A stretch of DNA of 64,000 nt from Escherichia coli (lineage in GTDB: Bacteria > Pseudomonadota > Gammaproteobacteria > Enterobacterales > Enterobacteriaceae): assembly GCF_030013595.1 (NCBI RefSeq), contig NZ_CP122768.1; one strand, 5' to 3'. The notes under the pieces are model-generated. The model searched no databases. It saw only the letters and a list, made by a program, of their open reading frames with translations, and was not told the origin of the DNA. This document shows, one piece after another, positions 3,086-18,524 of the stretch. The translations under genes and the position numbers were made by a program. Position 1 is the stretch's first letter; every line of letters begins with the position of its first letter.

Positions 3086-3086
3086 G

Positions 3087-4264: not shown

Positions 4265-4474
4265 AGCCTGCTTCTCCTTGACCTTTCGGTCCGTAAGAGG
4301 CTAATCTCTATGTGTCGCATAGATATGGCCTCAGATTAATGTTAAGCGTCTTGCAGGACGCGTAATGTTAACTGGGGCTTTTCTCTATCTGCCTTTTGGT
4401 GTTCATGCCTGAGGCAGATAGCCTCAAGCACCCGCAGCAATTCTACTTAACTCTCCTTTTCCCGCAAACCGTTT

Positions 4475-5483: not shown

Positions 5484-5484
5484 A

Positions 5485-5703
5485 TCAGTTCTCCTTATAC
5501 GGATTAATTTTATTGTGCAGTGTGTTGAACGACGCCCATACCACGTCGTTATACAATTCAATAACGGGCTCAATTACTTTTCCGATTATCCAGGCCAGTA
5601 ATAGCGGGAATATCGGTATCATCAATACGATAAACAGAATGAGAAACAGAAATTCTGTCGCTCTACTTTTTCGCGGATATTCTTTTCTGAATAATGTAGT
5701 CAT
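5485..5703 (-). CDS. small membrane protein, 72 aa
   Basis: ORF with a long hydrophobic segment (FLFLILFIVLMIPIFPLLLAWIIG), packed between neighbouring genes. Confidence 0.45.
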   Translation of the reverse strand: MTTLFRKEYPRKSRATEFLFLILFIVLMIPIFPLLLAWIIGKVIEPVIELYNDVVWASFNTLHNKINPYKEN

Positions 5704-5830
5704 TTCTTACCGCCCTTTCGGGCGGCCTCCGGATGATTTGAGGGTGCAGGAATCCCTCCGGTTAAGGATTTAATAAAAACCACTTCTGATTTAAATTTTC
5801 AGTGTTTTGTTGTCAGGTGGTTTATCGCCT

Positions 5831-6412
5831 TTATGCTTCAGCCTTATTTCTCAGCCATACACAAACAGGGCCGTCTTCGGTGTCATGTATTGAACCAATA
5901 AACCAACCATCGCCCTCTGGTCGTTCCGGTTCCCATGCAGAAATATCAGCATCACACGCATCAAGGTCAGCACATCCTTCGTCTCTGAAGCAGAGGACGT
6001 ATTGAAGATTATTTTCCTCCATCCAGGCGTTAAACTCTTCCGTTGAAATATACTCCCGACCACCACAGAATTTTTCATATTCAGGATGCGTCCAGCAGCC
6101 ATATTCATCACGCATTACTGGTATTTCTTTAATTACGTTCATCAGTATCACTCCTAATGCTTTGTTAATTGCAGAATGGGCCATTTCGAATTCATCAGTT
6201 TTTCTGTCAGCAACACGAACCACCGCTTGCAGGGCTTCAAGTAATTCTGGTGCTGCCGCTAAAAGCTGAAAATTAGCTTTCTGCATCTGCCAGTCATTGT
6301 TGTATTTTGTCACCTTAGCAATTGCCTTATCGCGTTCACTATCCACTACCCAGCAATTAGCTGAACCGTGGAAACTTACATGCCATGGACCTGGTGTTCC
6401 TTTAAATTTCAT
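5831..6412 (-). CDS. hypothetical phage protein (Ead/Ea22-like?), start uncertain
   Basis: ORF 5831-6514; start placed at MKFKGTPGPW to limit overlap with the upstream gene; acidic Cys-containing C-terminus. Confidence 0.45.
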   Translation of the reverse strand: MKFKGTPGPWHVSFHGSANCWVVDSERDKAIAKVTKYNNDWQMQKANFQLLAAAPELLEALQAVVRVADRKTDEFEMAHSAINKALGVILMNVIKEIPVMRDEYGCWTHPEYEKFCGGREYISTEEFNAWMEENNLQYVLCFRDEGCADLDACDADISAWEPERPEGDGWFIGSIHDTEDGPVCVWLRNKAEA

Positions 6413-6683
6413 GCCATGATTTTTTGTATTGCTCACTCGCTTCCTCCCACGTTTTAATGCTTTCACCACAGAACGGGCAAAATGAAACCCGAACTGGTAA
6501 TTTAGAAAATTCACCGGATCGCAACATCACCAAATCAGGGCCGCGAGTTAAACTCTCATTCCAGATTTTGTATATCAGCAGGCCTTTTCGCGTCGTGTAT
6601 TCAGCATCATGCTCAAGGGATTTTGTCAGTGCCGTACACGGTTCTATCTGATTGCCCTTAACCTGGCATTTTGATTCACTCAC
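6402..6683 (-). CDS. hypothetical protein, 93 aa, with C-x2-C motif
   Basis: ORF in operon context; …FCPFCGESI… motif. Confidence 0.4.
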   Translation of the reverse strand: MSESKCQVKGNQIEPCTALTKSLEHDAEYTTRKGLLIYKIWNESLTRGPDLVMLRSGEFSKLPVRVSFCPFCGESIKTWEEASEQYKKSWHEI

Positions 6684-6957
6684 TGGTTGCTGTCTCCTGT
6701 CGGAACATCACGATCATCAGGCCATCTTTTGTTGCTACCCTGGCTGTTGTACCAGGCTCTATGCTGCTAAGGTCAAATGCATCACAGAACTCCTCTAACA
6801 CTTTCTGGCGTCTCTCCTGTTTGCGGCGCTTTTCCCACTGCTTCAGAAAAACAGAGGTCACCCACTTCCCCGCGCTGAACATGATGTAAAACCAACCAAG
6901 CAGAGCCAACCCCGTGTTGAGGGCTGTATCAATCGTTATTGTTGTGTCGATATTCAC
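6676..6957 (-). CDS. small membrane protein, 93 aa
   Basis: ORF with hydrophobic helix (LALLGWFYIMFSAG) and basic tail; overlaps neighbours by a few nt. Confidence 0.45.
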   Translation of the reverse strand: MNIDTTITIDTALNTGLALLGWFYIMFSAGKWVTSVFLKQWEKRRKQERRQKVLEEFCDAFDLSSIEPGTTARVATKDGLMIVMFRQETATSE

Positions 6958-7250
6958 TGTGTCTTCTCCTGGAAAATAACCGCATGCCCCAGTTTCTCCG
7001 CCAGTGCCAATTCTGCCTTAGCACCTGCTGACCGCTGCCAGCCTTTCAGCATGTAAATCGCATCCACACAACGAATCATTGCCATGCAAATATCCATGTA
7101 GTGTGGCTGTGTCAGCCCGTCTGGAAGTACTGCCGGGTTTAAGACTGTATGCCCTTCCCGTTTCAGTTCCTCTTCCGCCTTGTGGAACGCCTCACGGTTG
7201 AAATTTTTATACCCGGTCATCGGACCAGCGATATAAACCCTCACCCTCAC
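6954..7250 (-). CDS. DUF4406 protein (nucleoside 2-deoxyribosyltransferase-like fold)
   Basis: N-terminal MRVRVYIAGPMTG motif characteristic of the DUF4406/deoxyribosyltransferase-like family. Confidence 0.55.
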   Translation of the reverse strand: MRVRVYIAGPMTGYKNFNREAFHKAEEELKREGHTVLNPAVLPDGLTQPHYMDICMAMIRCVDAIYMLKGWQRSAGAKAELALAEKLGHAVIFQEKTQ

Positions 7251-7642
7251 GCCATCACCTCCTGAAAATTACCCTGATAAAACGCCAGCACTCGCTGCAT
7301 AACCTCACTCTTCCGGCACTCGCGGCAGATTATGTTCTGGCTCCTGTCGTAGCGGCGTATCTCTCCGTCTGGTAACTTTCGAATCAGCGTCTGGTCAGTT
7401 GTTTTCTCCGGCGTCTTACGCCATTCGCGATACGTCTGCTCTGACGTAAAAACACCGTATTTACCGGACATGTATAAATCGCCACAAGCCAGTACATCCA
7501 CAAGGCAGCGTCGGACCGAATGCCAGCCTGCTCCCGTCGCTCTCTCCAGTTGCGACATCGTCATGCGTCCATTTTTGCGTACCAATCCGATAATTCGTGC
7601 CTTCAGCTCTTCCCGCTGTTCGGGTGTAAAAGGTTTCGCCAT
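7247..7642 (-). CDS. hypothetical phage protein, 131 aa
   Basis: ORF directly downstream of the P-like gene, 4-nt overlap with the DUF4406 gene. Confidence 0.45.
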   Translation of the reverse strand: MAKPFTPEQREELKARIIGLVRKNGRMTMSQLERATGAGWHSVRRCLVDVLACGDLYMSGKYGVFTSEQTYREWRKTPEKTTDQTLIRKLPDGEIRRYDRSQNIICRECRKSEVMQRVLAFYQGNFQEVMA

Positions 7643-7671
7643 AAACCCTCCCGGTAAAATTACTTATCAAC

Positions 7672-8214
7672 TCAAACAAAACCTGCCGCTTTCCTGCGTT
7701 CATATTCCTGTTTCAGCAACTCAATTGGAGTTGGCCCCGACGGGCGTTCTGGTGCTGCCAGTTGCCTACGGACGGGTGGAACACTCAGTCCGTTACCAAC
7801 ATGCTTTGCCCATTTCGCTAGTTGCCGTTCTGCAAGCCGTTTTAACTCCCCTTCGGTCATCTGGCGCTCAATCCCCTTTGAACGCAGCTCGAGACAAATG
7901 TGATACAGCACAGGCTGAGACCACGGGTATTTATCGCTTCCGTCGTATCGCCAGGACTCGTTGCGCCAGCGTCGGTACTCCTCCATCACGTTATCCACCG
8001 TCAGACCAAATGGATTTGCCCCGCTCTCCGAAATCAGCGCCACAAACTCAGCCAGGTCCGGAGGCCATGTTTCACCCGCCCGGCAGCGGTCCATGCACTG
8101 GCGGCAGACCTGCCGGATTTGCTGCTCAGTCATCGCGCCAATCTGTGCAATCCAGAGCTTCGAAGGTGCGGCCCCGTTCTTCTGGGTCCAGCGGTTCGAA
8201 TAAACCTCCCCCAT
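7672..8214 (-). CDS. replication protein P-like (helicase loader), start uncertain
   Basis: C-terminal half resembles lambda P (…YPW…ELKRLAERQLAKW…); the ORF extends to 8337 but that overlaps the O-like gene. Confidence 0.6.
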   Translation of the reverse strand: MGEVYSNRWTQKNGAAPSKLWIAQIGAMTEQQIRQVCRQCMDRCRAGETWPPDLAEFVALISESGANPFGLTVDNVMEEYRRWRNESWRYDGSDKYPWSQPVLYHICLELRSKGIERQMTEGELKRLAERQLAKWAKHVGNGLSVPPVRRQLAAPERPSGPTPIELLKQEYERRKAAGFV

Positions 8215-9166
8215 GAGTTCCCACAGCTTCCAGGCCGTTTCCGTCGCTGATAAATCCGTTTTCACGTTCCCACTGCTCACGTGCTGCCCGAATTTCCTGA
8301 ACTGCCCGTGATGCGGTGCCACCTGGTGCTGCTGCATGGTTTACCCCCTTGCTGACTGGTTTAACCTGTGCCCTGACGTGATTTACGTGACGGGCGAATT
8401 TCTGCTCCCACTGAACCTGCGTGAACACTTTGCCCTCATCGCTCCAGTAATCCCGGAATGCGGCAAGTTCAGCAGGTGTAAATTCCGGCTCCGGCAAAGC
8501 CATCCCCCACAACGCAGCCCGTCGTCGAAAATCCCGTGACGGATGCCAGCTATCGGTCATCGGAAATTTTCCGATGGGTTCGCTCAGGCCATCCAGGAAT
8601 ACGGGTGGCACTGCCTGTAACGACAAAACTTCCTGCTCACTGGTCGGAGCACTCTCGCGTGCGTTATGTGTGGGGTTTAGATCTTTGGGTTCCTTTGGGT
8701 TCCGTGATCCGTTTTTGGGTGTCTTTGATGGAAAATTTGGGTGTCTTTGGTTATTTTCCATGCAGCTAAGAGTTCCGTTTTTGGGTCTGTTTTGTGCTGA
8801 AACATAACCATTTTCGGTACTGTTTTTATTAACAGTACCAATTTTACCCACCTTTAAAGACTCCCGTTTTTGGGTGTATTCAGGCTCGGCAACACTTTCT
8901 TCTACACCGATAAGTCGGTACACCACAATTTGCTTTGTTCTGCCTTTTCTCTCACCGGTATCAACAATTAACCCAATCTCCATCAGGTGTCGTAAGCTGT
9001 CCTGCACAGTCTTTTTGTTCAGTTCCGTTACTTCTGCCAGTGCAGATACAGACGGGTATGCACACAAATCGGCACCGCACATATCAGCAAGCCAGGTCAA
9101 TACTGACTTACTGGATGAACTGCCGGTTTTCACCTTTTTAGCCCATCGTAGTGCATCGATACTCAT
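8126..9166 (-). CDS. replication initiator O-like protein
   Basis: N-terminal helix-turn-helix replisome-organiser region; iteron repeats embedded mid-gene as in lambda O. Confidence 0.65.
   Translation of the reverse strand: MSIDALRWAKKVKTGSSSSKSVLTWLADMCGADLCAYPSVSALAEVTELNKKTVQDSLRHLMEIGLIVDTGERKGRTKQIVVYRLIGVEESVAEPEYTQKRESLKVGKIGTVNKNSTENGYVSAQNRPKNGTLSCMENNQRHPNFPSKTPKNGSRNPKEPKDLNPTHNARESAPTSEQEVLSLQAVPPVFLDGLSEPIGKFPMTDSWHPSRDFRRRAALWGMALPEPEFTPAELAAFRDYWSDEGKVFTQVQWEQKFARHVNHVRAQVKPVSKGVNHAAAPGGTASRAVQEIRAAREQWERENGFISDGNGLEAVGTHGGGLFEPLDPEERGRTFEALDCTDWRDD
8684..8879. repeat. iteron-type replication origin within the O-like gene
   Basis: at least four copies of CCGTTTTTGGGTGTC-like units (8709, 8736, 8775, 8863), TTTGGGTTCC direct repeats, and an AT-rich palindrome GGTACTGTTTTTATTAACAGTACC. 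Confidence 0.65.
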
Positions 9167-9689
9167 ACGAACCCCTGGCAGACATTTGTTTATCTGCAAA
9201 GTAATATTGGTATTGCTGACGATACGCGTGCTTGAAAGCAATAGCTTTTTCTATAAGCTCGTCAGTCTCACGTTCCACAACAGCTGGATCCGCAAAAAGC
9301 AGCCCGGACTCCACCACATCGCCATATTCTTTGTTTAACCCGGCGATCATGTACGTAATGCTTTTTCCGTCAGTAATTTCACAATACAACCTGAAATCGC
9401 TGATCCGGATAGCCTCCATAATTGCCGGAATCAGCGCCGTGAATTTTTCCCGCTTATCCCTGGTGTCGATAGCTTTCCAGCGTTCGAATATCTTCACCCG
9501 GTTAACGCCCAGCGCCCGTTGATCAACCGCGCCATCATCAAACGTGACGCGTTGAACATCGATGTTCGGGCGTTCTTTCAGAGCCCAGAAGGCTTCCGTG
9601 ATTAATATCGTCGCCTGCTCCTGTGTCATTCCTGGTCGGCACACCCAGGCATCCAGAGCCTCACAAACCTGTTCAGGGGTGATTTTCAT
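9138..9689 (-). CDS. early-region protein in the cII position (YdaT-like?), 183 aa
   Basis: ORF between the cro-like gene and the O-like gene; weak recalled resemblance to YdaT-family proteins. Confidence 0.4.
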   Translation of the reverse strand: MKITPEQVCEALDAWVCRPGMTQEQATILITEAFWALKERPNIDVQRVTFDDGAVDQRALGVNRVKIFERWKAIDTRDKREKFTALIPAIMEAIRISDFRLYCEITDGKSITYMIAGLNKEYGDVVESGLLFADPAVVERETDELIEKAIAFKHAYRQQYQYYFADKQMSARGSYEYRCTTMG

Positions 9690-9900
9690 TGTTCAACCGC
9701 CCCGCCCGCTTTGCCTTACGATATTCGTCATAAACTTTGGGGTCGTACTGAAGTTCCCCGCCGGATGCCTCTTGCAGGCGCATCGCGCGACCTTCAGGAA
9801 CCAGTTCCCCCCATGCAGCAATGCTTGCCAGCCTAACTCCTGCGGCATTGGCAAGCTTTGTTTTGCTGCCAAAAAACGCTATAGCATCAATTTTCAACAT
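9673..9900 (-). CDS. dicC: DicC-like (Cro-type) repressor
   Basis: 75-aa protein close to DicC as recalled (…FGSKTKLA…AAG…LVPEGRAMRLQEASGGELQYDPKVYDEY…); divergent from dicA. Confidence 0.75.
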   Translation of the reverse strand: MLKIDAIAFFGSKTKLANAAGVRLASIAAWGELVPEGRAMRLQEASGGELQYDPKVYDEYRKAKRAGRLNNENHP

Positions 9901-9908
9901 ATCGAGCT

Positions 9909-9926
9909 CCTTAGATTTTCCTAAGG
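9909..9926. promoter_or_regulatory. palindromic operator CCTTAGATTTTCCTAAGG in the dicC-dicA intergenic region
   Basis: perfect 18-bp inverted repeat between divergent repressor genes; related CTTAGG half-sites at 9945-9975 and 10457-10509. Confidence 0.5.
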
Positions 9927-9976
9927 AAACTAGATCGTAGAGAAACCTAAGTCAAGAAAAATTAGAATTCCCTAAT

Positions 9977-10384
9977 ATGAAAAACGAAACCTTCGGTGCT
10001 CGCCTCTTACATAGGCGTAAAAAATTAAAACTGTCTCAGGCCGCATTAGGTAAGCTGGTCAAAGTGGCTCACGTAACAATTTCTCAATGGGAAAGAGATG
10101 AAACACAGCCGGCGGGGAAAAGATTATTCGCACTGAGCCAAGCGCTTCAGTGCTCACCGACTTGGCTTCTTTTTGGGGATGAAGATAAACAACCAGGCGA
10201 ACCGATCCCGGATAATCAGCCAGCCATTCTGACAGAAGATCAAAAAGAGTTACTTCAACTGTTCGACGCACTGCCTGAGTCAGAGCAAAAGGCCCTGTTG
10301 TCAGAGATGCGTGCTCGAGTTGAAAATTTCAACAAACTTTTTGAAGAACTACTCAAAGCTCGCAAAAGAAGCGCAAACAAATAA
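9977..10384 (+). CDS. dicA: DicA-like HTH (XRE family) repressor
   Basis: 135-aa protein close to DicA as recalled (…SQWER…FALS…LQCSPTW…FGDEDKQP…NFNKLFEELLKAR…). Confidence 0.8.
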   Translation: MKNETFGARLLHRRKKLKLSQAALGKLVKVAHVTISQWERDETQPAGKRLFALSQALQCSPTWLLFGDEDKQPGEPIPDNQPAILTEDQKELLQLFDALPESEQKALLSEMRARVENFNKLFEELLKARKRSANK

Positions 10385-10586
10385 TCCCCTTTTTTCTCCA
10401 CACCCTGTAATAAAAAGCACAAACTTTCAAACACTTGTGTTTTTTACATCAAAAAACTTAGGTTTTTCTACATAAAAATCTTGACCACCAGCCTTAGGTT
10501 ATTCTAAATTTCATTCATCAAGACACCGCACGGTGTTCTCAGCAAACAGTTCCGCCACCCCGGCGTTAAGGGGAAATGAGGTCAAC

Positions 10587-10739
10587 ATGGATACTATCGA
10601 TCTTGGCAACAACGAATCTCTGGTATACGGCGTGTTTCCCAACCAGGACGGCACATTCACCGCGATGACGTATACCAAAAGCAAAACGTTTAAAACCGAA
10701 ACTGGCGCTCGTCGCTGGTTAGCCAGAAACACTGACTGA
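10587..10739 (+). CDS. ydfA: YdfA-like protein (DUF1391)
   Basis: MDTIDLGNNESLVYGVFPNQDGTFTAMTYTKSKTFKTE… matches YdfA of Qin as recalled; first gene of the dicB operon. Confidence 0.7.
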   Translation: MDTIDLGNNESLVYGVFPNQDGTFTAMTYTKSKTFKTETGARRWLARNTD

Positions 10740-10750
10740 TGAGGCTGACG

Positions 10751-11389
10751 ATGGAATTTAAAGATTTACCAATATCAATACAGGAAATGGCCGCTGATGT
10801 GATTCGCTCGCAACTGGCGCGGAACCCAATGATATTAGTAGATAAAGTGTTCATCAGAAATTTATCAAATCATGTCCGCAATTCTTTTACCGGACTGTAT
10901 TCATATTCGTTCACAAACAATCATTGTGTAGAAAATAAAGCAAAGCCCATTGCAGAAACGATAACGCAAAACATCAATACGAAACAAACCGAAGAAGAAA
11001 TTGACCAGTTTACCCGTGATGCTGGCTTAAAATGCAGGAAAGAAAAATCGCCATATGCGGGAAATATGTTTGTTTATGACAACCTTATCCGAATTCGTGG
11101 CGAAATTCCGACTGAATACCTGGCAAGAATTCACCAGGCATTACTTAAAAATCTGGAAACGGAAGTATTTGATGGCAATACCAACGGCTCCTTCGTGGTG
11201 TCAACTCTCGCAAAAGAGTGGGATACAGATAATCGCTGGAATGTTGCTACATGGTTATTCAGCAACAAAGCTGCTGCCCTGGAAGCTGCGGCCTGTATTT
11301 GCGACCTGCTAAGGACAGACCGCAAATACAACCTGGATGTGTATAGCTATATTTATGCTGAACACTATCCGCTATGGATTAACTGGTAA
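10751..11389 (+). CDS. hypothetical protein, about 212 aa, no recognisable domain
   Basis: AT-rich ORF; GAGG Shine-Dalgarno before the second ATG; occupies the ydfB/ydfC position. Confidence 0.55.
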   Translation: MEFKDLPISIQEMAADVIRSQLARNPMILVDKVFIRNLSNHVRNSFTGLYSYSFTNNHCVENKAKPIAETITQNINTKQTEEEIDQFTRDAGLKCRKEKSPYAGNMFVYDNLIRIRGEIPTEYLARIHQALLKNLETEVFDGNTNGSFVVSTLAKEWDTDNRWNVATWLFSNKAAALEAAACICDLLRTDRKYNLDVYSYIYAEHYPLWINW

Positions 11390-11599
11390 TTACAAAGCTG
11401 TACCAGCAGGGCCACGGCGACCAGCGCCACGATTGTAATCAATGATGCCATTATAAAGCGCATTATTTAATTTATCGTCGAATGCCGATTCTGTGAGCCC
11501 TAGATCTGAATGAGTTTTTAATAACCCTGATTGCCTGAGTTGATTAACCAGGCATTCAATCTGTTTTTCAATAAGCGGATGTATTGGCTTGTTTGGCAT
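11390..11599 (-). CDS. hypothetical small protein, 69 aa (MPNKPIHPLIEKQIECLVNQL…)
   Basis: GGAGG Shine-Dalgarno 4 nt before the ATG; stop codon abuts the stop of the convergent 212-aa gene. Confidence 0.5.
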   Translation of the reverse strand: MPNKPIHPLIEKQIECLVNQLRQSGLLKTHSDLGLTESAFDDKLNNALYNGIIDYNRGAGRRGPAGTAL

Positions 11600-11924
11600 T
11601 TTATCCTCCATTGAAGTTACTGGTTGAGAATGGAGACCACACGTGACAGCGTGTTGTCGTGCACCGGACACGGATAAGAATCCGGCACTGACAGTTTACT
11701 GAAAGGATATATCCCTGAAAAGTCAGGGCATAACGCGAAAGCGCACGGCGGAGGTGTCTTTTCCTTAGAAGGCTTGTCGTTAGATTTCTTCGATTGTGCG
11801 CTTCCGGTTGTAGCACTCCGCGAAATGGCGCGGCGGTAAGTATGGCGGGGTTATTCCTTCCCCGTTGAGGACACCGGGTTGTCAGGTTGACCATACGCTT
11901 AAGTGACAACCCCGCTGCAACAAC

Positions 11925-11988
11925 CCATGTTGATTACCTTTTGGTGGGTATCCGTTTTTTGTTTTCCCTTGTGATACCCGCCCTTTTT
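11925..11988 (+). ncRNA. dicF: DicF-like small RNA (divergent)
   Basis: upstream of dicB; TTTGGTGGGTATC…GATACCCGCCC hairpin followed by TTTTT resembles the recalled DicF 3' end; boundaries approximate. Confidence 0.4.
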
Positions 11989-12173
11989 AAAGTGAATTTT
12001 GTGATGCGGTGAATGCGGCTCAGCGCACGCGGAACAGTTAAAAAAGTGATCGGTACTCTGTATTTGTTTTATGGAGTTGGTTTCCCTGTATTCCGGCGTT
12101 AATTGTTAACTGGTTAACGTCACCTGGAGGCACCAGGCACCGCATCACAAAATTCATTGTTGAGGACGCGATA

Positions 12174-12362
12174 ATGGAAACGTTATTACCAAACGTCAAT
12201 ACGTCTGAAGGTTGTTTTGAAATTGGTGTCAGAATCAGTAACCCTGTATTTACTGAAGATGCCATTAATAAGAGAAAACACGAACGGGAGCTATTAAATC
12301 AAATATGCATTGTTTCAATGCTGGCCCGTTTACGCCTGATGCAAAAAGGACGCTGCCAATGA
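12174..12362 (+). CDS. dicB: cell-division inhibitor DicB
   Basis: 62-aa protein METLLPNVNTSEGCFEIGV…ICIVSMLARLRLM… close to K-12 DicB as recalled. Confidence 0.85.
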   Translation: METLLPNVNTSEGCFEIGVRISNPVFTEDAINKRKHERELLNQICIVSMLARLRLMQKGRCQ

Positions 12363-12562
12363 ATACAGCATTTGCACTCGTTCTGACAGTTTTTCTTAAT
12401 ACAGGCGAACCAGTCGATCTTGTTATTGGTATACATGACTCAATGAAAGAATGCATGGCTGCCGCAGCGGAACAGAAAATTCCCGGCAACTGTTATCCGG
12501 TTGATAAAGTTATTCGCATGGACAATAACGAAATCCCGGCAGGACTTAAAACAGCACCGTAA
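12359..12562 (+). CDS. ydfD: YdfD-like small protein
   Basis: MNTAFALVLTVFL…AAAEQKIPGNCYPVDKVI… resembles YdfD; ATG overlaps the dicB stop. Confidence 0.6.
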   Translation: MNTAFALVLTVFLNTGEPVDLVIGIHDSMKECMAAAAEQKIPGNCYPVDKVIRMDNNEIPAGLKTAP

Positions 12563-12639
12563 TTAATATCCGGTTTCATTTTTATATGCCAGCAATGGCA
12601 GGGATTTGTTCACCCTAAAAATAGTTACGAGGTTTATCA

Positions 12640-15102
12640 ATGAGCGCTGATAAAGAAGAAATTGCACTATATTACGAAGCCAAAAATGACAAAGTCAGAA
12701 AACGCCTTGGGATTAAAGGCGGTTTTTACTGGCGCACAGCAAAAAAATTATCGATTGCAATATCACGCGGTGTTGTCGCAATGGACGATGCCGGATTTGA
12801 CGAAGAGGATTTTAAAAAACCTGTTCGCGTCCATTTACCCGTTGTGAATGACCTTCCTCCGGAAGGCGTGTTTGATACCGAATTCTGCAACCGATACGAA
12901 AAAGGCGGGGAAGATGGTATCACAATGGTACTTATCGCGCCCTCTGTTCAGGACAAACCAGCCAGCACTGACAATACCAACGTCAACGGTGAAGACATGA
13001 CTGAGATTGAGGAGAATATGCTCCTGCCAGTTTCAGGTCAGATTCTGCCTGTTCGATGGCTGGCGCAACACAACAGCGAAAAACCGATCACGCACGTTTC
13101 GCGGGACGAACTGCGCGCATTACATAACGCACAGGATGAAAAACTTCCCGCCGTTACCGCGCTGGCCATCTCAAATAAAGCAGCGCAACTCGAACCACTG
13201 GAAATTCGCGATCTCCACAAACTGGTACGCGACACTGACAAAGTTTTCCCTAATCCTGGTAATTCAGACCTGGGACTGATGACCGCTTTTTTCGAAGCAT
13301 ACCTGGGCGCTAACTACACCGATCGCGGTCTGCTTACAAAAGAGTGGATGAAGGGAAATCGTGTTTCACGTATCACCCGCACGGCTTCCGGCGCTAATGC
13401 TGGCGGCGGGAACAAAACCGATCGCAATCCGAATTTAGTACACACCTTCGATACGCTGGATGTGGAGATTGCAGCAGCCACACTTCCGATGGATTTTAAT
13501 ATTTATGAAATTCCGGGCAGCGTTTATCGTCGCGCAAAAGAAGTCGTCCGGAAGAAAGAAAGTCCGTTCAAAGAATGGTCCGCAGCACTTCGCGCAATCC
13601 CGGGTATCCTGGATTATTCCCGTGCCGCTATTTTTGCACTTATCCGGAGCGCCCACCCTGAACTTTACCTCTACAGGGTACGCCTTCAGGTGTATATCAA
13701 CGCCCACTTAACGGAGACTGATCACGAGAATCCTACCGAGGAAACTCTCGCTGCTGCACGACATACACCGGAAAAAGATATCCTGGAAGAAGTTAACCGC
13801 GAACTGGCTGCTGCTAAACACGAAACAGAAGAAGAAAAAAATAATGAGGAAAAATCACAACCGTCTGACGCAATGGCAGATGAACAGGCAACGACTGAAA
13901 CAATGGAGCCGGATACAACTGAACATCGCCAGGACACGCAATCGCTGGATACTCAGGCGCAGATAGATCCGGTTAATCAGGTAAAAGTTACCGCTGACGA
14001 AGTAAACAAAATTATGCAGGCAGCCAATATCAACCAGCCTGACGCCAATCAGTTGCTTGCTGTATCACGTGGTGAATTTGTTGCAGGGATTAGCGACCCG
14101 AATGATCCGAAATGGGTGAAGGGGATTGAAACCCGCGATTCAGTGAATCAGAACCAGCAAGAAATGGAACAGAACGACCAGAAAGCGGAAAAAAACAGCC
14201 CAAATGCGTTACAAAACGAGCCAGAAACGAAACAACCTGAGCCAGTAGCGCAACAGGAATCGGAAAAAGTCTGCACCGCCTGCGGTCAGAGCGGTGGCGG
14301 CAGCTGCCCTGATTGTGGCGCGGTGATGGGCGACGCAACATACCAGGAAACATTCGATGAAGAGAATCAGGTTGAAGTTCAGGAAAATGATCCGGAGGAA
14401 ATGGAAGGCGCTGAACATCCACACAAGGAGAATGCTGGCAGCGCTCAGGACCACGCCAGCGATAATGAAACTGGCGAGACGGCAGATCCCTTAATTGCGG
14501 TGAACGGTCATCACGTTATCACATCCACCAGCAGAGTGTGGTACCACCTGATGATCGACCTTGAAACAATGGGAACCAACACCAATGCGCCCATCGTGGT
14601 TATTGGTGCGGTTTTCTTCGACCCACAAACAGGGGAAATCGGGCCAGTATTTTATATCGTTATCAGTCTGACTGACGCAATGAATACAGGGGCTGTTCCT
14701 GACGGTGGAACCATCGAATGGTGGCTGAAGCAGTCCAGTGAAGCCAGAGCTGCCATTTTAACAGACCAGGTAAAACTGAAGGATGCCCTTTCGCGGTTTC
14801 GGGAGTTCATCAACGAATACTCAGATGAAAAATTCGTTCAGGTATGGGGTAATGGTGCAACTTTCGATAACGCAATTTTGCGCACCTCATACGAACGTCT
14901 GGACATCCCCTGCCCGTGGCGCTACTACAACGATCGCGATGTACGCACAATCGTTGAGCTGGGAAAAACCATCGGTTTTGATGCCAGAACAGCTATCCCG
15001 TTCGAAGGTGTACCCCACAATGCACTGGATGATGCCCGTCACCAGGCGAAATACGTTTCAGTAATCTGGCAAAAACTGATCCCGAGTCAGGCTGATTTTT
15101 AA
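12640..15102 (+). CDS. prophage exonuclease (YdfE/exodeoxyribonuclease VIII-like), 820 aa, with C-terminal DnaQ-like DEDDh 3'-5' exonuclease domain
   Basis: C-terminus has Exo I (MIDLETMG), Exo II (WGNGATFD) and Exo III (HNALDDARH) motifs; acidic low-complexity linker and C-x2-C-x9-C-x2-C motif; sits upstream of xis-int. Confidence 0.7.
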   Translation: MSADKEEIALYYEAKNDKVRKRLGIKGGFYWRTAKKLSIAISRGVVAMDDAGFDEEDFKKPVRVHLPVVNDLPPEGVFDTEFCNRYEKGGEDGITMVLIAPSVQDKPASTDNTNVNGEDMTEIEENMLLPVSGQILPVRWLAQHNSEKPITHVSRDELRALHNAQDEKLPAVTALAISNKAAQLEPLEIRDLHKLVRDTDKVFPNPGNSDLGLMTAFFEAYLGANYTDRGLLTKEWMKGNRVSRITRTASGANAGGGNKTDRNPNLVHTFDTLDVEIAAATLPMDFNIYEIPGSVYRRAKEVVRKKESPFKEWSAALRAIPGILDYSRAAIFALIRSAHPELYLYRVRLQVYINAHLTETDHENPTEETLAAARHTPEKDILEEVNRELAAAKHETEEEKNNEEKSQPSDAMADEQATTETMEPDTTEHRQDTQSLDTQAQIDPVNQVKVTADEVNKIMQAANINQPDANQLLAVSRGEFVAGISDPNDPKWVKGIETRDSVNQNQQEMEQNDQKAEKNSPNALQNEPETKQPEPVAQQESEKVCTACGQSGGGSCPDCGAVMGDATYQETFDEENQVEVQENDPEEMEGAEHPHKENAGSAQDHASDNETGETADPLIAVNGHHVITSTSRVWYHLMIDLETMGTNTNAPIVVIGAVFFDPQTGEIGPVFYIVISLTDAMNTGAVPDGGTIEWWLKQSSEARAAILTDQVKLKDALSRFREFINEYSDEKFVQVWGNGATFDNAILRTSYERLDIPCPWRYYNDRDVRTIVELGKTIGFDARTAIPFEGVPHNALDDARHQAKYVSVIWQKLIPSQADF

Positions 15103-15154
15103 TGTTCAACCGTCGCCAGTTGTCGTTGGTATTCTGCAACTGGCGCGTTCCGGA

Positions 15155-15433
15155 GTGATAACCATGAGCGAACAGTACCTGATAACGCTCGACGAGTGGA
15201 AACCAAAACGGTTCAGTCTCCCAATAACAAACACCACCCTGGTGAAATACGGAAAACTAGGATACATCGTTCCAAGACCACAAAAAATTCGTGGGCGTTG
15301 GCTGATAGATCGCCGGGCAGTATTTGTTGGACCTGGTGAAACAGGAATTGCGCCGGAAATTCATACTGGCGATGATGATGCACTGAAGGAGATTTTAACT
15401 CATGTCACCGAGGCCACGAAAAAACAGCACTGA
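15155..15433 (+). CDS. xis: excisionase (Xis)
   Basis: lambda-Xis-like N-terminus (…LITLDEW…RPQKIRGRWL…), directly upstream of and overlapping int. Confidence 0.7.
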   Translation: MITMSEQYLITLDEWKPKRFSLPITNTTLVKYGKLGYIVPRPQKIRGRWLIDRRAVFVGPGETGIAPEIHTGDDDALKEILTHVTEATKKQH

Positions 15434-16520
15434 CGTAGCCGGTCTTTACGAAAAGTTTGATCGCAGAACTGGCAGGGTTTACTACCAGTATAAAAACCCT
15501 GTGACTGGAAAATTTCACGGACTCGGAACAGACAAAGGTAAGGCAGAAAAAATCGCTTCCACAGCCAATCAGCGAATAGCTGCAGCAGAGGCTGAATATT
15601 TCATGCGCAAAATTGATGAAAGTCCGTCAGCAACAAAACGTCGGGGTATCAGATTAAAGGCATGGGTTGATCGATATCTGAAAATACAGGACGCGCGACT
15701 GAAAAATGGAGATATTGCAGCTACAACTCACAAAGAAAAAGCCCGAATGGCTGCATACCTGGTTTCCCGTCTGGGAAACCACCCATTGAAAGAACTGGAA
15801 GTAAGAGACTTTGCATTAATACTGGATGAGTGGCTGGATAAAGACATGGTCAGCACAGCGAGAGTAAATCGCGGATTATGGGTTGATATTTATAAAGAAG
15901 CACAGCATGCAGGGGAAGTTCCTCCTGGATGGAATCCTCCGGAGGCTACCCGTAAACCGATCCCTAAAGTAACCAGAGCCAGGCTCACCATGGAAGACTG
16001 GCAAAAAATTTACAATGCAACGCCTGAAAAACACTTTATCCGTAACGCAATGCTTCTTGCGATTGTTACTGGTCAGCGCCGTGATGACATTTGCCACATG
16101 CGTTTTTCAGATGTGTGGAACGAACACTTGCATATCACCCAGGGAAAAACCGGAATGCGTCTGGCGTTACCGCTTACACTACGCTGTGATGCCATTGGGA
16201 TAACGTTAAAAGAAGTTATTGATGGGTGCCGAGACAGAATATTAAGTCCATATCTAATCCATAGTCGGCACCAGAAACAACCGAAGCCGATGAGTAAAGA
16301 CAACCTGAGCGACTACTTTGCCAAAGCACGGGATCTGGCTGGGATAATTCCACCAGCAGGAAAAACTCCGCCAACATTTCATGAACAACGCTCTCTATCA
16401 GAACGGCTGTACCGTGCACAGGGTATCGATACAAAAACATTACTAGGACATAAAGTCCAGGCAACCACCGATCGCTATAACGATACTCGAGGTCAGGAAT
16501 GGGTTAAGTTGGTTATTTGA
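15402..16520 (+). CDS. int: tyrosine-type site-specific integrase
   Basis: 372-aa ORF with an integrase-typical C-terminal region (…HEQRSL…LLGH…TDRYND…), next to the chromosome junction. Confidence 0.85.
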   Translation: MSPRPRKNSTDVAGLYEKFDRRTGRVYYQYKNPVTGKFHGLGTDKGKAEKIASTANQRIAAAEAEYFMRKIDESPSATKRRGIRLKAWVDRYLKIQDARLKNGDIAATTHKEKARMAAYLVSRLGNHPLKELEVRDFALILDEWLDKDMVSTARVNRGLWVDIYKEAQHAGEVPPGWNPPEATRKPIPKVTRARLTMEDWQKIYNATPEKHFIRNAMLLAIVTGQRRDDICHMRFSDVWNEHLHITQGKTGMRLALPLTLRCDAIGITLKEVIDGCRDRILSPYLIHSRHQKQPKPMSKDNLSDYFAKARDLAGIIPPAGKTPPTFHEQRSLSERLYRAQGIDTKTLLGHKVQATTDRYNDTRGQEWVKLVI

Positions 16521-16570: not shown

Positions 16571-16690
16571 AATGCGTGGCCTAGTTTTGGGGAAACGTTT
16601 TGGAGAGATTTTGGAGAAAGGAAAAAATTGAATAAATTCAAAATCCTGAAAGTGTCCCGCCTTATGAATAAGAAGGTGGAACTCGAATGA
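16571..16690 (+). pseudogene. potB: displaced 3' end of potB at the prophage-chromosome junction (att region)
   Basis: reading frame ends …SRLMNKKVELE with TGA overlapping the potC ATG, matching the recalled PotB C-terminus; upstream codons are not PotB-like; potA and the 5' part of potB are absent. Confidence 0.55.
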
Positions 16691-17481
16691 TCGGTCGACT
16701 GCTTCGCGGCGGTTTTATGACCGCTATCTACGCGTACCTGTATATTCCAATCATTATTTTGATTGTGAACTCTTTCAACAGCTCGCGCTTTGGCATCAAC
16801 TGGCAGGGTTTTACCACTAAATGGTATAGCCTGCTGATGAACAACGACAGTCTGTTGCAGGCAGCTCAGCATTCATTGACGATGGCGGTGTTTTCAGCGA
16901 CGTTTGCTACGCTTATCGGTTCACTGACGGCAGTTGCGCTGTACCGTTATCGCTTTCGCGGTAAACCGTTCGTTAGCGGAATGCTGTTCGTGGTGATGAT
17001 GTCGCCAGATATTGTGATGGCGATTTCTCTGCTGGTGCTGTTTATGCTGCTGGGTATTCAGCTTGGCTTCTGGTCGCTGCTGTTCTCGCATATCACCTTC
17101 TGCCTGCCGTTTGTGGTGGTGACGGTGTATTCGCGCCTGAAAGGTTTTGACGTGCGAATGCTGGAAGCGGCGAAAGATCTCGGTGCCAGCGAATTTACCA
17201 TTCTGCGAAAAATCATTCTGCCACTGGCAATGCCAGCGGTAGCGGCGGGCTGGGTGTTAAGCTTTACCCTGTCGATGGACGATGTAGTAGTTTCTTCGTT
17301 CGTCACCGGACCAAGCTATGAAATTCTGCCGTTAAAAATTTATTCGATGGTCAAAGTCGGCGTATCGCCGGAAGTTAACGCGCTGGCAACCATATTACTG
17401 GTGCTGTCGCTGGTGATGGTAATTGCCAGCCAGCTTATTGCTCGTGATAAAACGAAAGGTAACACAGGGGACGTTAAATGA
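16687..17481 (+). CDS. potC: spermidine/putrescine ABC transporter permease PotC
   Basis: 264-aa ORF recognised as PotC; overlaps potD start as in K-12. Confidence 0.95.
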   Translation: MIGRLLRGGFMTAIYAYLYIPIIILIVNSFNSSRFGINWQGFTTKWYSLLMNNDSLLQAAQHSLTMAVFSATFATLIGSLTAVALYRYRFRGKPFVSGMLFVVMMSPDIVMAISLLVLFMLLGIQLGFWSLLFSHITFCLPFVVVTVYSRLKGFDVRMLEAAKDLGASEFTILRKIILPLAMPAVAAGWVLSFTLSMDDVVVSSFVTGPSYEILPLKIYSMVKVGVSPEVNALATILLVLSLVMVIASQLIARDKTKGNTGDVK

Positions 17482-18524
17482 AAAAATGGTCACGCCACCT
17501 GCTCGCGGCGGGTGCTCTGGCACTGGGCATGAGCGCCGCTCACGCCGATGACAACAACACGCTGTATTTCTACAACTGGACCGAGTACGTGCCGCCAGGA
17601 CTGCTTGAACAGTTCACCAAAGAAACCGGTATTAAGGTTATCTATTCGACTTACGAGTCGAACGAAACCATGTACGCGAAGCTGAAAACGTACAAAGACG
17701 GTGCCTATGACCTGGTGGTTCCTTCAACCTATTACGTCGATAAAATGCGTAAAGAAGGGATGATCCAGAAGATCGACAAGTCGAAGTTAAGCAATTTCAG
17801 CAACCTCGATCCAGACATGCTCAACAAGCCGTTTGACCCGAATAACGACTATTCCATTCCGTATATCTGGGGTGCGACGGCGATTGGCGTTAACGGTGAT
17901 GCGGTAGATCCGAAATCCGTTACCAGCTGGGCCGATCTGTGGAAGCCTGAGTACAAAGGCAGCCTGCTGCTGACCGACGATGCCCGTGAAGTGTTCCAGA
18001 TGGCGCTGCGCAAACTGGGCTACTCCGGTAACACTACCGATCCGAAAGAGATTGAAGCTGCATATAACGAGCTAAAAAAACTGATGCCAAACGTAGCAGC
18101 GTTTAACTCCGATAACCCGGCTAACCCGTACATGGAAGGCGAAGTTAACCTCGGCATGATCTGGAACGGTTCTGCTTTCGTTGCACGCCAGGCGGGTACG
18201 CCTATTGACGTGGTGTGGCCGAAAGAAGGCGGTATTTTCTGGATGGACAGCCTGGCGATCCCAGCAAATGCCAAAAACAAAGAAGGCGCGCTGAAATTGA
18301 TCAACTTCCTGCTGCGCCCAGATGTGGCAAAACAGGTTGCAGAAACTATCGGTTATCCAACGCCAAACCTTGCGGCGCGTAAGCTGTTAAGTCCGGAAGT
18401 GGCGAACGATAAAACGCTCTACCCGGATGCTGAAACCATTAAAAATGGTGAATGGCAGAATGACGTTGGCGCAGCCAGCAGCATTTATGAAGAGTATTAT
18501 CAGAAGCTGAAAGCAGGACGTTAA
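17478..18524 (+). CDS. potD: spermidine/putrescine-binding periplasmic protein PotD
   Basis: 348-aa ORF with signal peptide, recognised as PotD. Confidence 0.95.
   Translation: MKKWSRHLLAAGALALGMSAAHADDNNTLYFYNWTEYVPPGLLEQFTKETGIKVIYSTYESNETMYAKLKTYKDGAYDLVVPSTYYVDKMRKEGMIQKIDKSKLSNFSNLDPDMLNKPFDPNNDYSIPYIWGATAIGVNGDAVDPKSVTSWADLWKPEYKGSLLLTDDAREVFQMALRKLGYSGNTTDPKEIEAAYNELKKLMPNVAAFNSDNPANPYMEGEVNLGMIWNGSAFVARQAGTPIDVVWPKEGGIFWMDSLAIPANAKNKEGALKLINFLLRPDVAKQVAETIGYPTPNLAARKLLSPEVANDKTLYPDAETIKNGEWQNDVGAASSIYEEYYQKLKAGR

What the first reader, a model, noticed from the sequence alone, without database searches (positions are those of the whole stretch)
12640..15102. 820-aa prophage exonuclease: long unknown N-terminus, acidic linker, Cys4 motif and DnaQ-like C-terminus
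The gene occupies the exo/recE position upstream of xis-int. Its last ~220 residues carry clear DEDDh 3'-5' exonuclease motifs (MIDLETMG, WGNGATFD, HNALDDARH) rather than a RecE-type nuclease, and no recT/bet-like partner is adjacent. The first ~600 residues include a highly acidic tract (about residues 380-560) and a CTACGQSGGGSCPDCG motif. This could be a recombination exonuclease of a different mechanistic class, or an anti-defence nuclease.
Basis: partly seen in the sequence, partly recalled or inferred. Interest (0 to 1): 0.55.

Follow-up and report, generated by a model that had tools for sequence, protein, structure and literature searches.

The report
RecE-family prophage protein with DnaQ-type exonuclease
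This is a very common, already catalogued E. coli prophage gene in which the front 620 residues of the RecE recombination nuclease are joined to a different, DnaQ/DexA-type 3'-to-5' exonuclease; the gene is real and intact, but its biological role has not been tested.

Summary
The "long unknown N-terminus" is not unknown. Residues 58-619 are 56% identical to residues 50-591 of E. coli K-12 RecE, including the acidic tracts and the Cys4 motif. Homology stops exactly where RecE's 5'-3' nuclease domain begins. From there, residues 636-810 match the whole Rv2179c-like DEDDh exonuclease model (Pfam E 1.4e-69). All five catalytic residues are present, and T4 DexA is the closest solved structure. [quoted passage not shown] An identical protein is in NCBI. 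Homologues of the exonuclease domain occur in 76% of complete E. coli genomes. The same fusion occurs in isolated phages (Tritos, Evi), and a 2025 paper already describes DnaQ-like nucleases in lambdoid recombination modules. Purifying selection (dN/dS about 0.2-0.3) argues against a decaying remnant.

My best reading is a Mg-dependent 3'-5' DNA-end exonuclease carried on a RecE-type scaffold, in a Chi-rich prophage that depends on host RecBCD. The biological role is inferred. Anti-defence has no support, and a defence role like the published EcD/HREX homologue is possible but weak.

The parts
12640..15102 (+). Whole gene: 820-aa fusion of a RecE N-terminal region and a DEDDh exonuclease
   Evidence: ORF. 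An identical 820-aa protein is in NCBI as 'exonuclease [Escherichia coli]' (P0001). dN/dS against three alleles is 0.20-0.28.
12640..12948 (+). N-terminal domain 1 (residues 1-103), a small alpha/beta domain
12964..13839 (+). N-terminal domain 2 (about residues 109-400), mostly helical; it includes part of the Pfam Exonuc_VIII match (residues 56-187, which also overlaps domain 1) and the conserved TRTASGANAGGGN motif
13846..14526 (+). Acidic, largely disordered central region (residues 403-629) with two conserved islands: two helices plus the SRGEFVxGISDPNDPKWVKGI motif (residues 452-493), and the Cys4 motif
   Evidence: pLDDT is below 50 at 403-451, 494-540 and 566-629. Net charge -23. The islands are nearly identical in K-12 RecE and in Tritos. 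dS is very low across 541-632 against otherwise divergent alleles.
14272..14319 (+). Cys4 motif CTACGQSGGGSCPDCG (residues 545-560), a putative zinc ribbon
   Evidence: Position. Conserved in K-12 RecE as CNACGQTGGDNCPDCG. AF2 predicts short beta strands with pLDDT about 75. The Pfam DZR match is weak (E 0.12). The motif is present in only 3 of 13 DEDDh-fused and 2 of 22 RecE-nuclease representatives.
14525..14532 (-). Chi site (GCTGGTGG) at the junction between the RecE-derived part and the DEDDh domain (codons 629-631)
   Evidence: Conserved in all six fused alleles examined and absent from K-12 recE. Nucleotide identity to other alleles drops just downstream of it.
14545..15099 (+). C-terminal DEDDh (DnaQ-fold, Rv2179c-like/DexA-like) 3'-5' exonuclease domain, residues 636-820; catalytic residues D640, E642, D743, H793, D798
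   Evidence: Pfam PF16473, E 1.4e-69, model positions 2-177 of 177. phmmer to T4 DexA 8kel, E 8e-9. Foldseek top hits are 8kel, REXO2, RNase T and Orn. pLDDT about 95. Catalytic residues are conserved in 12-13 of 13 fused and 49-50 of 50 stand-alone homologues.
15155..16520 (+). Excisionase (15155-15433) and integrase (15402-16520) immediately downstream; prophage end next to potC
   Evidence: PHROG 629 excisionase and PHROG 7244/1 integrase. Same synteny in Tritos, vB_EcoS-813R8, Evi and E. coli chromosomes.

Best explanation
The gene encodes a modular early-left-operon protein of a Qin/Tritos-like lambdoid prophage.

Architecture:
- Residues 1-619 are the non-catalytic N-terminal region of RecE (exonuclease VIII). 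It has two confidently predicted folded domains, acidic disordered linkers and a Cys4 mini-domain.
- In place of RecE's C-terminal 5'-3' PD-(D/E)xK nuclease and the downstream recT, it carries a DEDDh (DnaQ-fold, Rv2179c/DexA-type) domain.

What is shown: the architecture, the exact homology breakpoint, the intact catalytic pentad, purifying selection, and the absence of any phage SSAP, SSB or anti-RecBCD gene in the operon.

What is inferred from family knowledge: the C-terminal domain is a two-metal 3'-to-5' exonuclease acting on free 3' ends of DNA, and probably a dimer like DexA, Orn and RNase T.

What is inferred from context: the protein is made from pL during lytic growth. It is the only nuclease of a 'nuclease-only' recombination module in a Chi-rich phage that relies on host RecBCD/RecA.

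Most likely job: trimming 3' tails so that phage DNA ends become blunt, RecBCD-loadable substrates, or otherwise editing 3' ends of recombination or replication intermediates. The RecE-type N-terminus would act as the targeting or assembly scaffold.

Rough sub-confidences: identity and architecture 0.95; 3'-5' exonuclease activity 0.85; DNA-end processing linked to recombination-dependent growth 0.4; the specific end-blunting-for-RecBCD step 0.25.
For: Architecture:
- RecE N-terminal homology: NCBIfam NF007259 matches residues 1-620 to model positions 1-603 of 877.
- BLASTP gives 56% identity, residues 58-619 against K-12 RecE 50-591, ending where the RecE nuclease domain starts. That domain is placed at residues 564-866 in PMC11611040.

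DEDDh domain:
- Pfam PF16473, E 1.4e-69, full model length.
- DexA is the best sequence and structure match in the PDB.
- D640/E642/D743/H793/D798 are conserved across fused and stand-alone homologues.

Selection and occurrence:
- dN/dS is 0.14-0.31 in the folded domains.
- The fusion is an uninterrupted ORF in other genomes.
- It occurs in isolated phages Tritos, Evi and HannyBb.

Context:
- The synteny cI...dicB-ydfD-exo-xis-int holds here and in Tritos and 813R8.
- There is no SSAP, SSB or anti-RecBCD gene.
- In Rac, by contrast, recE is followed by recT.
- The stand-alone homologue epsilon34 gp34 (57% identity) sits between erf-ssb and abc2.
- Zheng et al. 2025 list DnaQ-like nucleases as Rec-module members. 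They define a Chi-rich, nuclease-only 'Tritos' class.
- The visible 16.5 kb of this prophage has 9 Chi sites, 7 in one orientation. About 0.5 are expected from composition and about 3.8 at the host density seen in the same window.
Against: - No biochemical or genetic data exist for the fusion protein.
- Host 3'-5' exonucleases usually inhibit rather than promote homologous recombination, as Zheng et al. themselves note.
- Stand-alone homologues occur in very different contexts: next to DNA polymerase I, in T4's dexA locus, or among unknown genes. The domain is therefore not tied to recombination.
- The family includes RNases (Rv2179c, Orn), so the substrate could be RNA or short oligonucleotides.
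- The end-blunting step rests on my recollection of host ExoI/SbcCD literature. It was not tested here.
- Only part of the prophage is in the window, so an SSAP elsewhere cannot be formally excluded, although lambdoid SSAPs are normally in this operon.
Confidence: 0.5

Rival explanations
1. Superinfection exclusion or defence of the HREX/EcD type. The DEDDh domain would selectively degrade 5-hydroxymethylcytosine-containing DNA of incoming T-even phages and spare unmodified host DNA. The gene would then be a prophage-borne immunity factor.
For: PMC12153337 reports that an E. coli DexA homologue, EcD, cleaves T4 DNA but not unmodified dsDNA and protects cells from T4. The domain here is a DexA homologue with the same fold. 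From its primers EcD starts MIDTET..., and the spacing from its catalytic Asp to residue 78 equals that of this domain. Homologues are present in 76% of E. coli genomes, often in several copies, which would suit a defence gene.
Against: The two residues that paper ties to 5hmC recognition are not kept here: W152 aligns with Y763 and D169 aligns with A785. Most stand-alone enterobacterial homologues do keep W and D. The residue aligned to DexA D90, whose loss is said to define the defence type, is Asp here (D715), though the alignment is uncertain at that point. The gene lies deep in the repressor-controlled early-left operon with no promoter-like site in front of it, so expression in a lysogen is doubtful. 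No PADLOC model matches. The EcD sequence could not be retrieved, so its relationship to this allele is unknown. The HREX claim rests on a single study.
Confidence: 0.17
2. Nucleotide scavenging or oligonucleotide clean-up, like T4 DexA or oligoribonuclease. The enzyme would degrade ssDNA or short DNA/RNA oligonucleotides produced during lytic growth to recycle nucleotides, with no direct role in recombination.
For: DexA's classical role is host-DNA scavenging (PMC12153337). The next structural neighbours are Orn/REXO2 and RNase T. The Pfam family is named after the exoribonuclease Rv2179c. There is a weak NCBIfam match to oligoribonuclease.
Against: This does not explain why the domain is fused in frame to a 620-residue RecE scaffold that is under purifying selection, nor why it replaces a recombination nuclease at exactly the domain boundary. 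Temperate lambdoid phages are not known to degrade the host chromosome (my background knowledge).
Confidence: 0.13
3. Anti-defence nuclease. It would destroy a host immune nucleic acid or signal, such as retron msDNA, linear oligonucleotide messengers or guide RNAs.
For: Phage early operons often carry anti-defence genes. From my recollection, supported by the title of the preprint listed, RecE itself was reported to trigger a retron system by acting on msDNA. A 3'-5' exonuclease could attack free 3' ends of such molecules.
Against: No similarity to any known anti-defence nuclease was found. Cyclic oligonucleotide signals lack a free 3' end. Nothing in the neighbourhood or distribution points this way.
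Confidence: 0.07
4. Functionless relic: an accidental in-frame junction left by deletion or recombination in a decaying prophage.
For: Many E. coli copies are disrupted or annotated as partial. Clear deletion products exist in the family, for example P0245, which joins RecE residues 1-528 to RecT 83-269. Asadulghani et al. judged most Exo VIII-type systems of O157 Sakai defective.
Against: dN/dS is 0.2-0.3 with conserved catalytic residues. The ORF is intact in distant alleles. It is present in plaque-forming or induced phages. The same architecture occurs in Salmonella, Enterobacter, Kosakonia and Pluralibacter.
Confidence: 0.05

Closest known systems
RecE (exonuclease VIII) of the Rac prophage, E. 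coli K-12
   Same: Residues 58-619 are 56% identical to RecE 50-591, including the Pfam Exonuc_VIII region, the SRGEFVxGISDPNDPKWVKGI island, the Cys4 motif and the acidic linkers. The position in the early-left operon upstream of xis-int is the same.
   Different: It lacks the whole catalytic PD-(D/E)xK domain (RecE about 592-866) and so, by homology, lacks 5'-3' dsDNA exonuclease activity. No recT, ralR or rcbA follows it. It scores 890 bits against the NCBIfam RecE equivalog, below the cutoff of 1269.
T4 DexA (exonuclease A; PDB 8KEL/8KEN)
   Same: It is the best solved-structure match by sequence (E 8e-9) and by fold (Foldseek E 8e-10, TM 0.68-0.75 on the target). It has the same DEDDh catalytic residues.
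   Different: Identity is only about 23-30%. DexA has extra loops and helices and is a stand-alone 227-aa protein of a virulent phage. Its 5hmC-recognition residues W152 and D169 correspond to Y763 and A785 here.
EcD / 'HREX' E. coli DexA homologue (PMC12153337)
   Same: It is an E. coli protein of the same short Rv2179c-like size class. It starts at the MID-x-ET motif, and its catalytic Asp and residue 78 have the same spacing as in this domain.
   Different: EcD is a stand-alone protein (starts MIDTET..., ends ...TIPETY) and is not among the 120 closest homologues of this domain. The residues said to define 5hmC recognition are not conserved here. No test has been done on a RecE-fused form.
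Stand-alone DnaQ-like nucleases of lambdoid Rec modules (e.g. Salmonella phage epsilon34 gp34) and the 'Tritos' nuclease-only class (Zheng et al., Genome Res 2025, PMC12315714)
   Same: gp34 is 57% identical to residues 636-820 and sits in the run erf-ssb-gp34-abc2. Phage Tritos carries a direct homologue of this fusion (69.7% identity over residues 268-819) in identical synteny. It belongs to a Chi-rich class with a nuclease but no SAP, SSB or anti-RecBCD, as in this prophage.
   Different: gp34-type proteins are about 182-190 aa with no RecE part and have SSAP partners. Tritos has a different N-terminal 260-residue module (phrog_5943). The text of that paper that I could read does not describe the RecE-N::DnaQ fusion as such.
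Rv2179c (M. tuberculosis) and oligoribonuclease / REXO2 / RNase T
   Same: Rv2179c is the founding member of Pfam PF16473, which this domain matches end to end. Orn, REXO2 and RNase T are the next structural neighbours after DexA.
   Different: Those are cellular RNA or oligonucleotide-processing enzymes, with 15-23% identity and no RecE-type extension.

Membership tests
RecE / exodeoxyribonuclease VIII (NCBIfam NF007259 equivalog) | Homology to the RecE N-terminal region (Pfam Exonuc_VIII PF06630 and beyond) | tested here: met
   PF06630, E 1.9e-26. NF007259 covers residues 1-620. 56% identity to K-12 RecE 50-591.
RecE / exodeoxyribonuclease VIII (NCBIfam NF007259 equivalog) | Whole-protein score above the curated equivalog cutoff | tested here: not met
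   889.8 bits against a cutoff of 1269. Only model positions 1-603 of 877 are matched.
RecE / exodeoxyribonuclease VIII (NCBIfam NF007259 equivalog) | C-terminal PD-(D/E)xK (RecB-like) 5'-3' nuclease domain | tested here: not met
   No alignment to RecE beyond residue 591. No PF12684/PDDEXK hit. The C-terminus is a DEDDh fold instead.
Two-component phage recombinase (RecET / lambda Red 'SynExo' type) | Adjacent single-strand annealing protein partner (RecT, Bet, Erf, Sak) | tested here: not met
   No SSAP among the ORFs from 9.9 to 16.5 kb. In Rac, recT follows recE. Only the part of the prophage inside the window could be checked.
DEDDh (DnaQ-like) exonucleases, Pfam Rv2179c-like PF16473 | Full-length match to the family profile | tested here: met
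   E 1.4e-69, model positions 2-177 of 177, residues 636-810.
DEDDh (DnaQ-like) exonucleases, Pfam Rv2179c-like PF16473 | Catalytic D-E-D-D plus His (Exo I DxE, Exo II D, Exo III Hx4D) | tested here: met
   D640, E642, D743, H793 and D798. They are conserved in homologues.
DEDDh (DnaQ-like) exonucleases, Pfam Rv2179c-like PF16473 | DnaQ/RNase H-like fold | tested here: met
   AF2 pLDDT about 95 for residues 630-820. Foldseek top hits are DexA, REXO2, RNase T and Orn, probability 1.00.
DEDDh (DnaQ-like) exonucleases, Pfam Rv2179c-like PF16473 | Metal-dependent 3'-5' exonuclease activity | not testable with these tools
   Needs an enzyme assay.
HREX / EcD-type hmC-DNA-specific defence exonuclease (PMC12153337) | Trp and acidic residue equivalent to DexA W152 and D169 (5hmC recognition) | tested here: not met
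   Alignment A1 gives Y763 and A785. epsilon34 gp34 and most stand-alone homologues have W and D. The alignment is at about 30% identity, so it carries some uncertainty.
HREX / EcD-type hmC-DNA-specific defence exonuclease (PMC12153337) | Loss of the tetramer-forming Asp (DexA D90) | tested here: inconclusive
   The aligned residue is D715, but this segment aligns poorly.
HREX / EcD-type hmC-DNA-specific defence exonuclease (PMC12153337) | Protection against T4 and selective cleavage of hmC DNA | not testable with these tools
   Needs plaque assays and nuclease assays.
'Tritos' class: nuclease-only Rec module in Chi-rich lambdoid phages (PMC12315714) | Nuclease present, with SAP, SSB and anti-RecBCD absent from the early-left operon | tested here: met
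   Tritos itself carries the homologous gene in the same synteny.
'Tritos' class: nuclease-only Rec module in Chi-rich lambdoid phages (PMC12315714) | Four or more Chi sites in the active orientation | tested here: met
   Seven Chi on the window's minus strand and two on the plus strand within 1-16520. Only part of the prophage is visible, and the assignment of 'active' orientation is my inference from gene order.

The most novel reading that the evidence does not exclude
The RecE N-terminal region may be an autonomous platform that does not care which nuclease it carries. It is a confidently predicted two-domain fold with no solved homologue. It is found joined to a 5'-3' PD-(D/E)xK head, to a 3'-5' DEDDh head, or to no nuclease at all. 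The DEDDh version would define a third phage recombination strategy: the phage supplies only a 3'-end-trimming enzyme that prepares its DNA ends for the host RecBCD-Chi pathway. The conserved Chi site at the domain junction would drive the exchange of nuclease heads.
Probability: 0.15. Interest if true: 0.6.

Novelty: already known. Interest (0 to 1): 0.27.

Why it matters
This is one of the most widespread prophage genes in E. coli. Homologues of the exonuclease domain are in 76% of complete genomes, with up to 8 copies per genome. It is still routinely labelled 'exodeoxyribonuclease VIII', which implies a 5'-3' RecE activity that it cannot have. NCBI's PGAP pipeline even splits the intact ORF into a 'RecE pseudogene' and an internally started '3'-5' exonuclease'.

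Recognising it as a head-swapped RecE corrects that annotation. It also gives a natural handle on the long-unexplained RecE N-terminus: the same scaffold carries two nucleases of opposite polarity. And it bears on how lambdoid phages without an SSAP recombine. None of this changes current concepts, so the finding is useful housekeeping rather than a discovery.

Tried and rejected
1. K-12 exoD (DLP12) as a remnant of this gene: no similarity.
2. Internal translation start at M638, which would give a stand-alone exonuclease: no convincing Shine-Dalgarno sequence upstream. The 183-aa database entries look like annotation of disrupted copies.
3. Finding the published EcD sequence among homologues. 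No protein starting MIDTET or ending TIPETY is among the 240 proteins retrieved at that point. The accession could not be fetched.
5. 'Other' C-terminal heads on RecE-N proteins. Pfam on 20 representatives without a detectable head found only Exonuc_VIII, plus two RecT junctions. At least one of these (P0245) is a deletion fusion.
6. A general link between stand-alone DEDDh homologues and recombination genes. The sampled phage contexts are heterogeneous.
7. PADLOC defence models: no hit.
8. Literature searches for the Pfam accessions or for a description of the fusion: nothing found.
9. Rfam and promoter/terminator scans around the gene: nothing relevant.
Full report
**Observation**

The window holds an uninterrupted ATG-initiated ORF at 12640-15102 (+) of 820 codons. 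A GAGG ribosome-binding site lies 8 nt upstream.

- MIDLETMG at residues 638-645
- WGNGATFD at 736-743
- HNALDDARH at 793-801
- CTACGQSGGGSCPDCG at 545-560

Residues 380-560 have net charge -23. The gene is followed directly by an excisionase (15155-15433) and an integrase (15402-16520), then by host potC and potD. The description is therefore correct. Only the size of the exonuclease domain (about 185 residues, not 220) and the word "unknown" for the N-terminus need correcting.

**What the protein is**

Three independent profile libraries agree on a two-part architecture.
- Pfam finds Exonuc_VIII (PF06630, residues 56-187, E 1.9e-26). It also finds a full-length Rv2179c-like 3'-5' exonuclease domain (PF16473, residues 636-810, model positions 2-177 of 177, E 1.4e-69).
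- NCBIfam's RecE equivalog NF007259 matches residues 1-620 to model positions 1-603 of 877. It scores 890 bits, below the 1269-bit cutoff, because the last third of the model is not matched.
- PHROGs places the protein in several "exonuclease" families.

A direct BLASTP against E. coli K-12 RecE, taken from the Rac prophage, gives 56% identity for residues 58-619 against RecE 50-591. There is nothing beyond that point. The aligned part includes the acidic tracts, a nearly invariant island (SRGEFVxGISDPNDPKWVKGI) and the Cys4 motif, which is CNACGQTGGDNCPDCG in RecE. The homology ends just where the RecE nuclease domain begins. A review places that domain at residues 564-866 and calls the N-terminal part a "domain of unknown function" (PMC11611040).

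In Rac the order is recE-recT-ralR-rcbA-xisR-intR. Here the gene runs straight into xis-int. The protein is therefore a RecE in which the 5'-3' PD-(D/E)xK head, together with recT, has been replaced by a DEDDh head.

**The C-terminal domain**

- The only solved structures found by sequence are 8KEL and 8KEN (E 8e-9). These are T4 DexA (PMC12153337).
- An AlphaFold2 model of the whole protein gives pLDDT of about 95 for residues 630-820.
- Foldseek against the PDB ranks DexA first (E 8e-10, target TM 0.68-0.75). REXO2, RNase T and oligoribonuclease follow.
- The catalytic set D640, E642, D743, H793, D798 is complete. It is conserved in 12-13 of 13 fused and 49-50 of 50 stand-alone homologues.

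**The N-terminal region**

The full-length model and a separate model of residues 1-404 (mean pLDDT 93, pTM 0.68) predict two folded domains:
- a small alpha/beta domain, residues 1-103;
- a mostly helical domain, about residues 109-400.

After these come disordered acidic segments (403-451, 494-540, 566-629). They are interrupted by two helices (452-493) and by the Cys4 mini-domain (541-565, pLDDT about 75).

The Cys4 motif is confined to the Escherichia-type branch. It is present in 3 of 13 DEDDh-fused and 2 of 22 nuclease-type representatives.

**Distribution and status**

- An identical 820-aa protein is already in NCBI as "exonuclease [Escherichia coli]".
- In 5,426 complete E. coli genomes, 1,199 carry at least 80% of the gene at megablast stringency.
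- 4,135 genomes (76%) carry a homologue of the DEDDh-domain DNA, with a median of 2 and up to 8 copies. The particular allele here (95% identity or more) is a minority form, in 88 records.
- The fusion is present in isolated or induced phages, including Evi, Tritos, HannyBb, mEp460_ev081, vB_EcoS-813R8, PPompW and several Stx2a phages.
- It is also present in Salmonella, Enterobacter, Kosakonia and Pluralibacter.

An exhaustive search of 1.84 billion representative proteins with the N-terminal 619 residues finds only 261 clusters. Among those of at least 450 aa:
- about 13-14 end in a DEDDh domain;
- about 22 end in a RecE nuclease domain;
- the rest have no recognisable head. This matches the "RecE-2" proteins without a nuclease domain mentioned by Zheng et al.. 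At least one (P0245) is a RecE-RecT deletion fusion.

Pairwise dN/dS against three alleles is 0.20-0.28 overall and 0.14-0.31 in the folded domains. The ORF is intact in the other copies examined. So the gene is maintained by selection.

The same comparison shows strong mosaicism. Tritos and Evi have an unrelated first 260 residues (phrog_5943). Their central linker and, for Evi, the DEDDh domain are nearly identical to the window at the DNA level.

**Context**

The visible 16.5 kb of the prophage has the lambdoid order Q...P-O-cII-cro / cI...dicB-ydfD-exo-xis-int. The order dicB-ydfD-exo-xis-int recurs in Tritos and vB_EcoS-813R8.

No early-left ORF matches an SSAP, an SSB or an anti-RecBCD protein.

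The prophage part carries 9 Chi octamers, 7 in one orientation. About 0.5 are expected from composition. The 47.5 kb of host DNA in the same window has 11.

This is the profile that Zheng et al. (Genome Res 2025, PMC12315714) describe for lambdoid phages that depend on host RecBCD. Their class typified by phage Tritos has a nuclease but no SAP, SSB or anti-RecBCD, and has many Chi sites. [quoted passage not shown] I confirmed that epsilon34 gp34 is 57% identical to the domain here and lies between erf-ssb and abc2. An older survey of O157 Sakai simply called these genes an "Exo VIII-type" recombination system (PMC2669165).

**How it most likely works**

- Shown: the architecture, the breakpoint, the intact active site, selection, and the absence of a partner.
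- Inferred from the family: two-metal 3'-5' exonucleolysis from free 3' ends, probably as a dimer.
- Inferred from context: expression from pL during lytic growth, as the only phage-encoded DNA-end enzyme of a RecBCD/Chi-dependent phage.

The role I favour is trimming 3' tails so that ends become RecBCD-loadable, or otherwise editing 3' ends of intermediates, with the RecE-type N-terminus as a scaffold. This is a hypothesis only. It rests partly on my recollection of host ExoI/SbcCD end-blunting work. It must also be set against the general observation that 3'-5' exonucleases inhibit recombination.

**Rivals**

*HREX-type defence.* This is the only experimentally grounded alternative. An E. 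coli DexA homologue, EcD, was reported to cut hmC-containing T4 DNA selectively and to protect against T4. Several points weaken it here:
- The residues that study ties to hmC recognition (DexA W152 and D169) align with Y763 and A785 in this protein. Most stand-alone enterobacterial homologues keep W and D.
- The gene sits in a repressed operon with no promoter-like site ahead of it.
- No PADLOC model matches.
- EcD is a different, stand-alone sequence that I could not retrieve.

*Scavenging or oligonucleotide degradation.* This fits the structural neighbours, but not the selected fusion to RecE-N.

*Anti-defence.* It has no positive evidence.

*A functionless relic.* The selection data contradict it.

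**Comparison with the known, and novelty**

The protein works, by inference, like DexA or Rv2179c-type DEDDh exonucleases, and it is a member of that Pfam family. It shares descent with RecE over three quarters of its length, but it fails RecE's defining catalytic and partner features. It should therefore not be called exonuclease VIII.

The sequence, the domain combination and the phage class are all already in public databases and, in part, in the 2025 literature. What I could not find stated in the text available to me is that the common "Exo VIII-like" prophage gene is a head-swapped RecE. That is an annotation-level insight, not a new kind of system. I rate interest as low to moderate.

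Noticed in passing
L001:6001-8466 and L002:6001-8460 (E. coli chromosomes NZ_CP182374.1, NC_011415.1): RefSeq/PGAP annotates the intact 819-821-codon homologue as two features. One is a 'RecE family exodeoxyribonuclease' pseudogene fragment. The other is a separate '3'-5' exoribonuclease/exonuclease' CDS that starts at an internal codon. The reading frame has no stop, so this is an annotation artefact that probably affects thousands of genomes.
   Followed up: partly
window 14525-14532 (- strand): A Chi octamer lies exactly at the junction between the RecE-derived part and the DEDDh domain (codons for ITSTSR). It is conserved in all six fused alleles examined and absent from K-12 recE. Nucleotide identity to other alleles falls sharply just downstream, as if this were a recurrent recombination breakpoint.
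   Followed up: partly
window 1-16520: The prophage segment is Chi-rich: 9 GCTGGTGG sites, 7 on the minus strand. About 0.5 are expected from composition, and the 47.5 kb of host DNA has 11. This matches the RecBCD-dependent 'no SAP' lambdoid classes of Zheng et al. 2025.
   Followed up: partly
L012:4269-5108 (phage Tritos) and L004:5126-5965 (phage Evi): In these phages the first 260 or so residues of the homologous protein are a completely different module (phrog_5943, unknown function). The central linker and DEDDh domain are shared. The gene is therefore a mosaic of at least three parts.
   Followed up: partly
protein P0245 (703 aa, metagenome/genome representative): RecE N-terminal residues 1-528 are joined directly to RecT residues 83-269. 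This looks like a deletion that removed the RecE nuclease domain and the start of recT.
   Followed up: partly
window 454-763 (- strand): A cluster of four tRNA genes (Met-CAT, Lys-TTT, Thr-TGT, Gly-TCC) lies just downstream of the Q antiterminator gene (974-1669, -) inside the prophage.
   Followed up: no
window 4262-4433 (- strand): An Rfam sok antitoxin RNA match (108 bits, gathering threshold 59) lies inside the prophage, implying a hok/sok-type toxin-antitoxin locus.
   Followed up: no
window 2027-3085 (- strand): A 352-aa ORF matches PHROG 96 'HNH endonuclease' over its full length (E 1e-163). It lies between the replication genes and Q.
   Followed up: no
window 16687-18524; L013:9027-10864: The prophage is integrated immediately upstream of an intact potC-potD. 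The GenBank 'phage' record vB_EcoS-813R8 contains the same junction and host genes (potC, potD, ymfA, ycfZ), so that record includes bacterial flanking DNA.
   Followed up: no
window 53564-53732 (-) and 55593-55929 (+): The host landmarks SraB sRNA and the rne 5' UTR element are present, consistent with an E. coli chromosomal location near rne and potABCD.
   Followed up: no
L008:2890-5804 (Oceanospirillum phage vB_OsaM_PD0307): A stand-alone homologue of the DEDDh domain lies immediately upstream of, and abuts, a DNA polymerase I gene. This suggests a proofreading-type partnership in that phage, a different use of the same domain.
   Followed up: no
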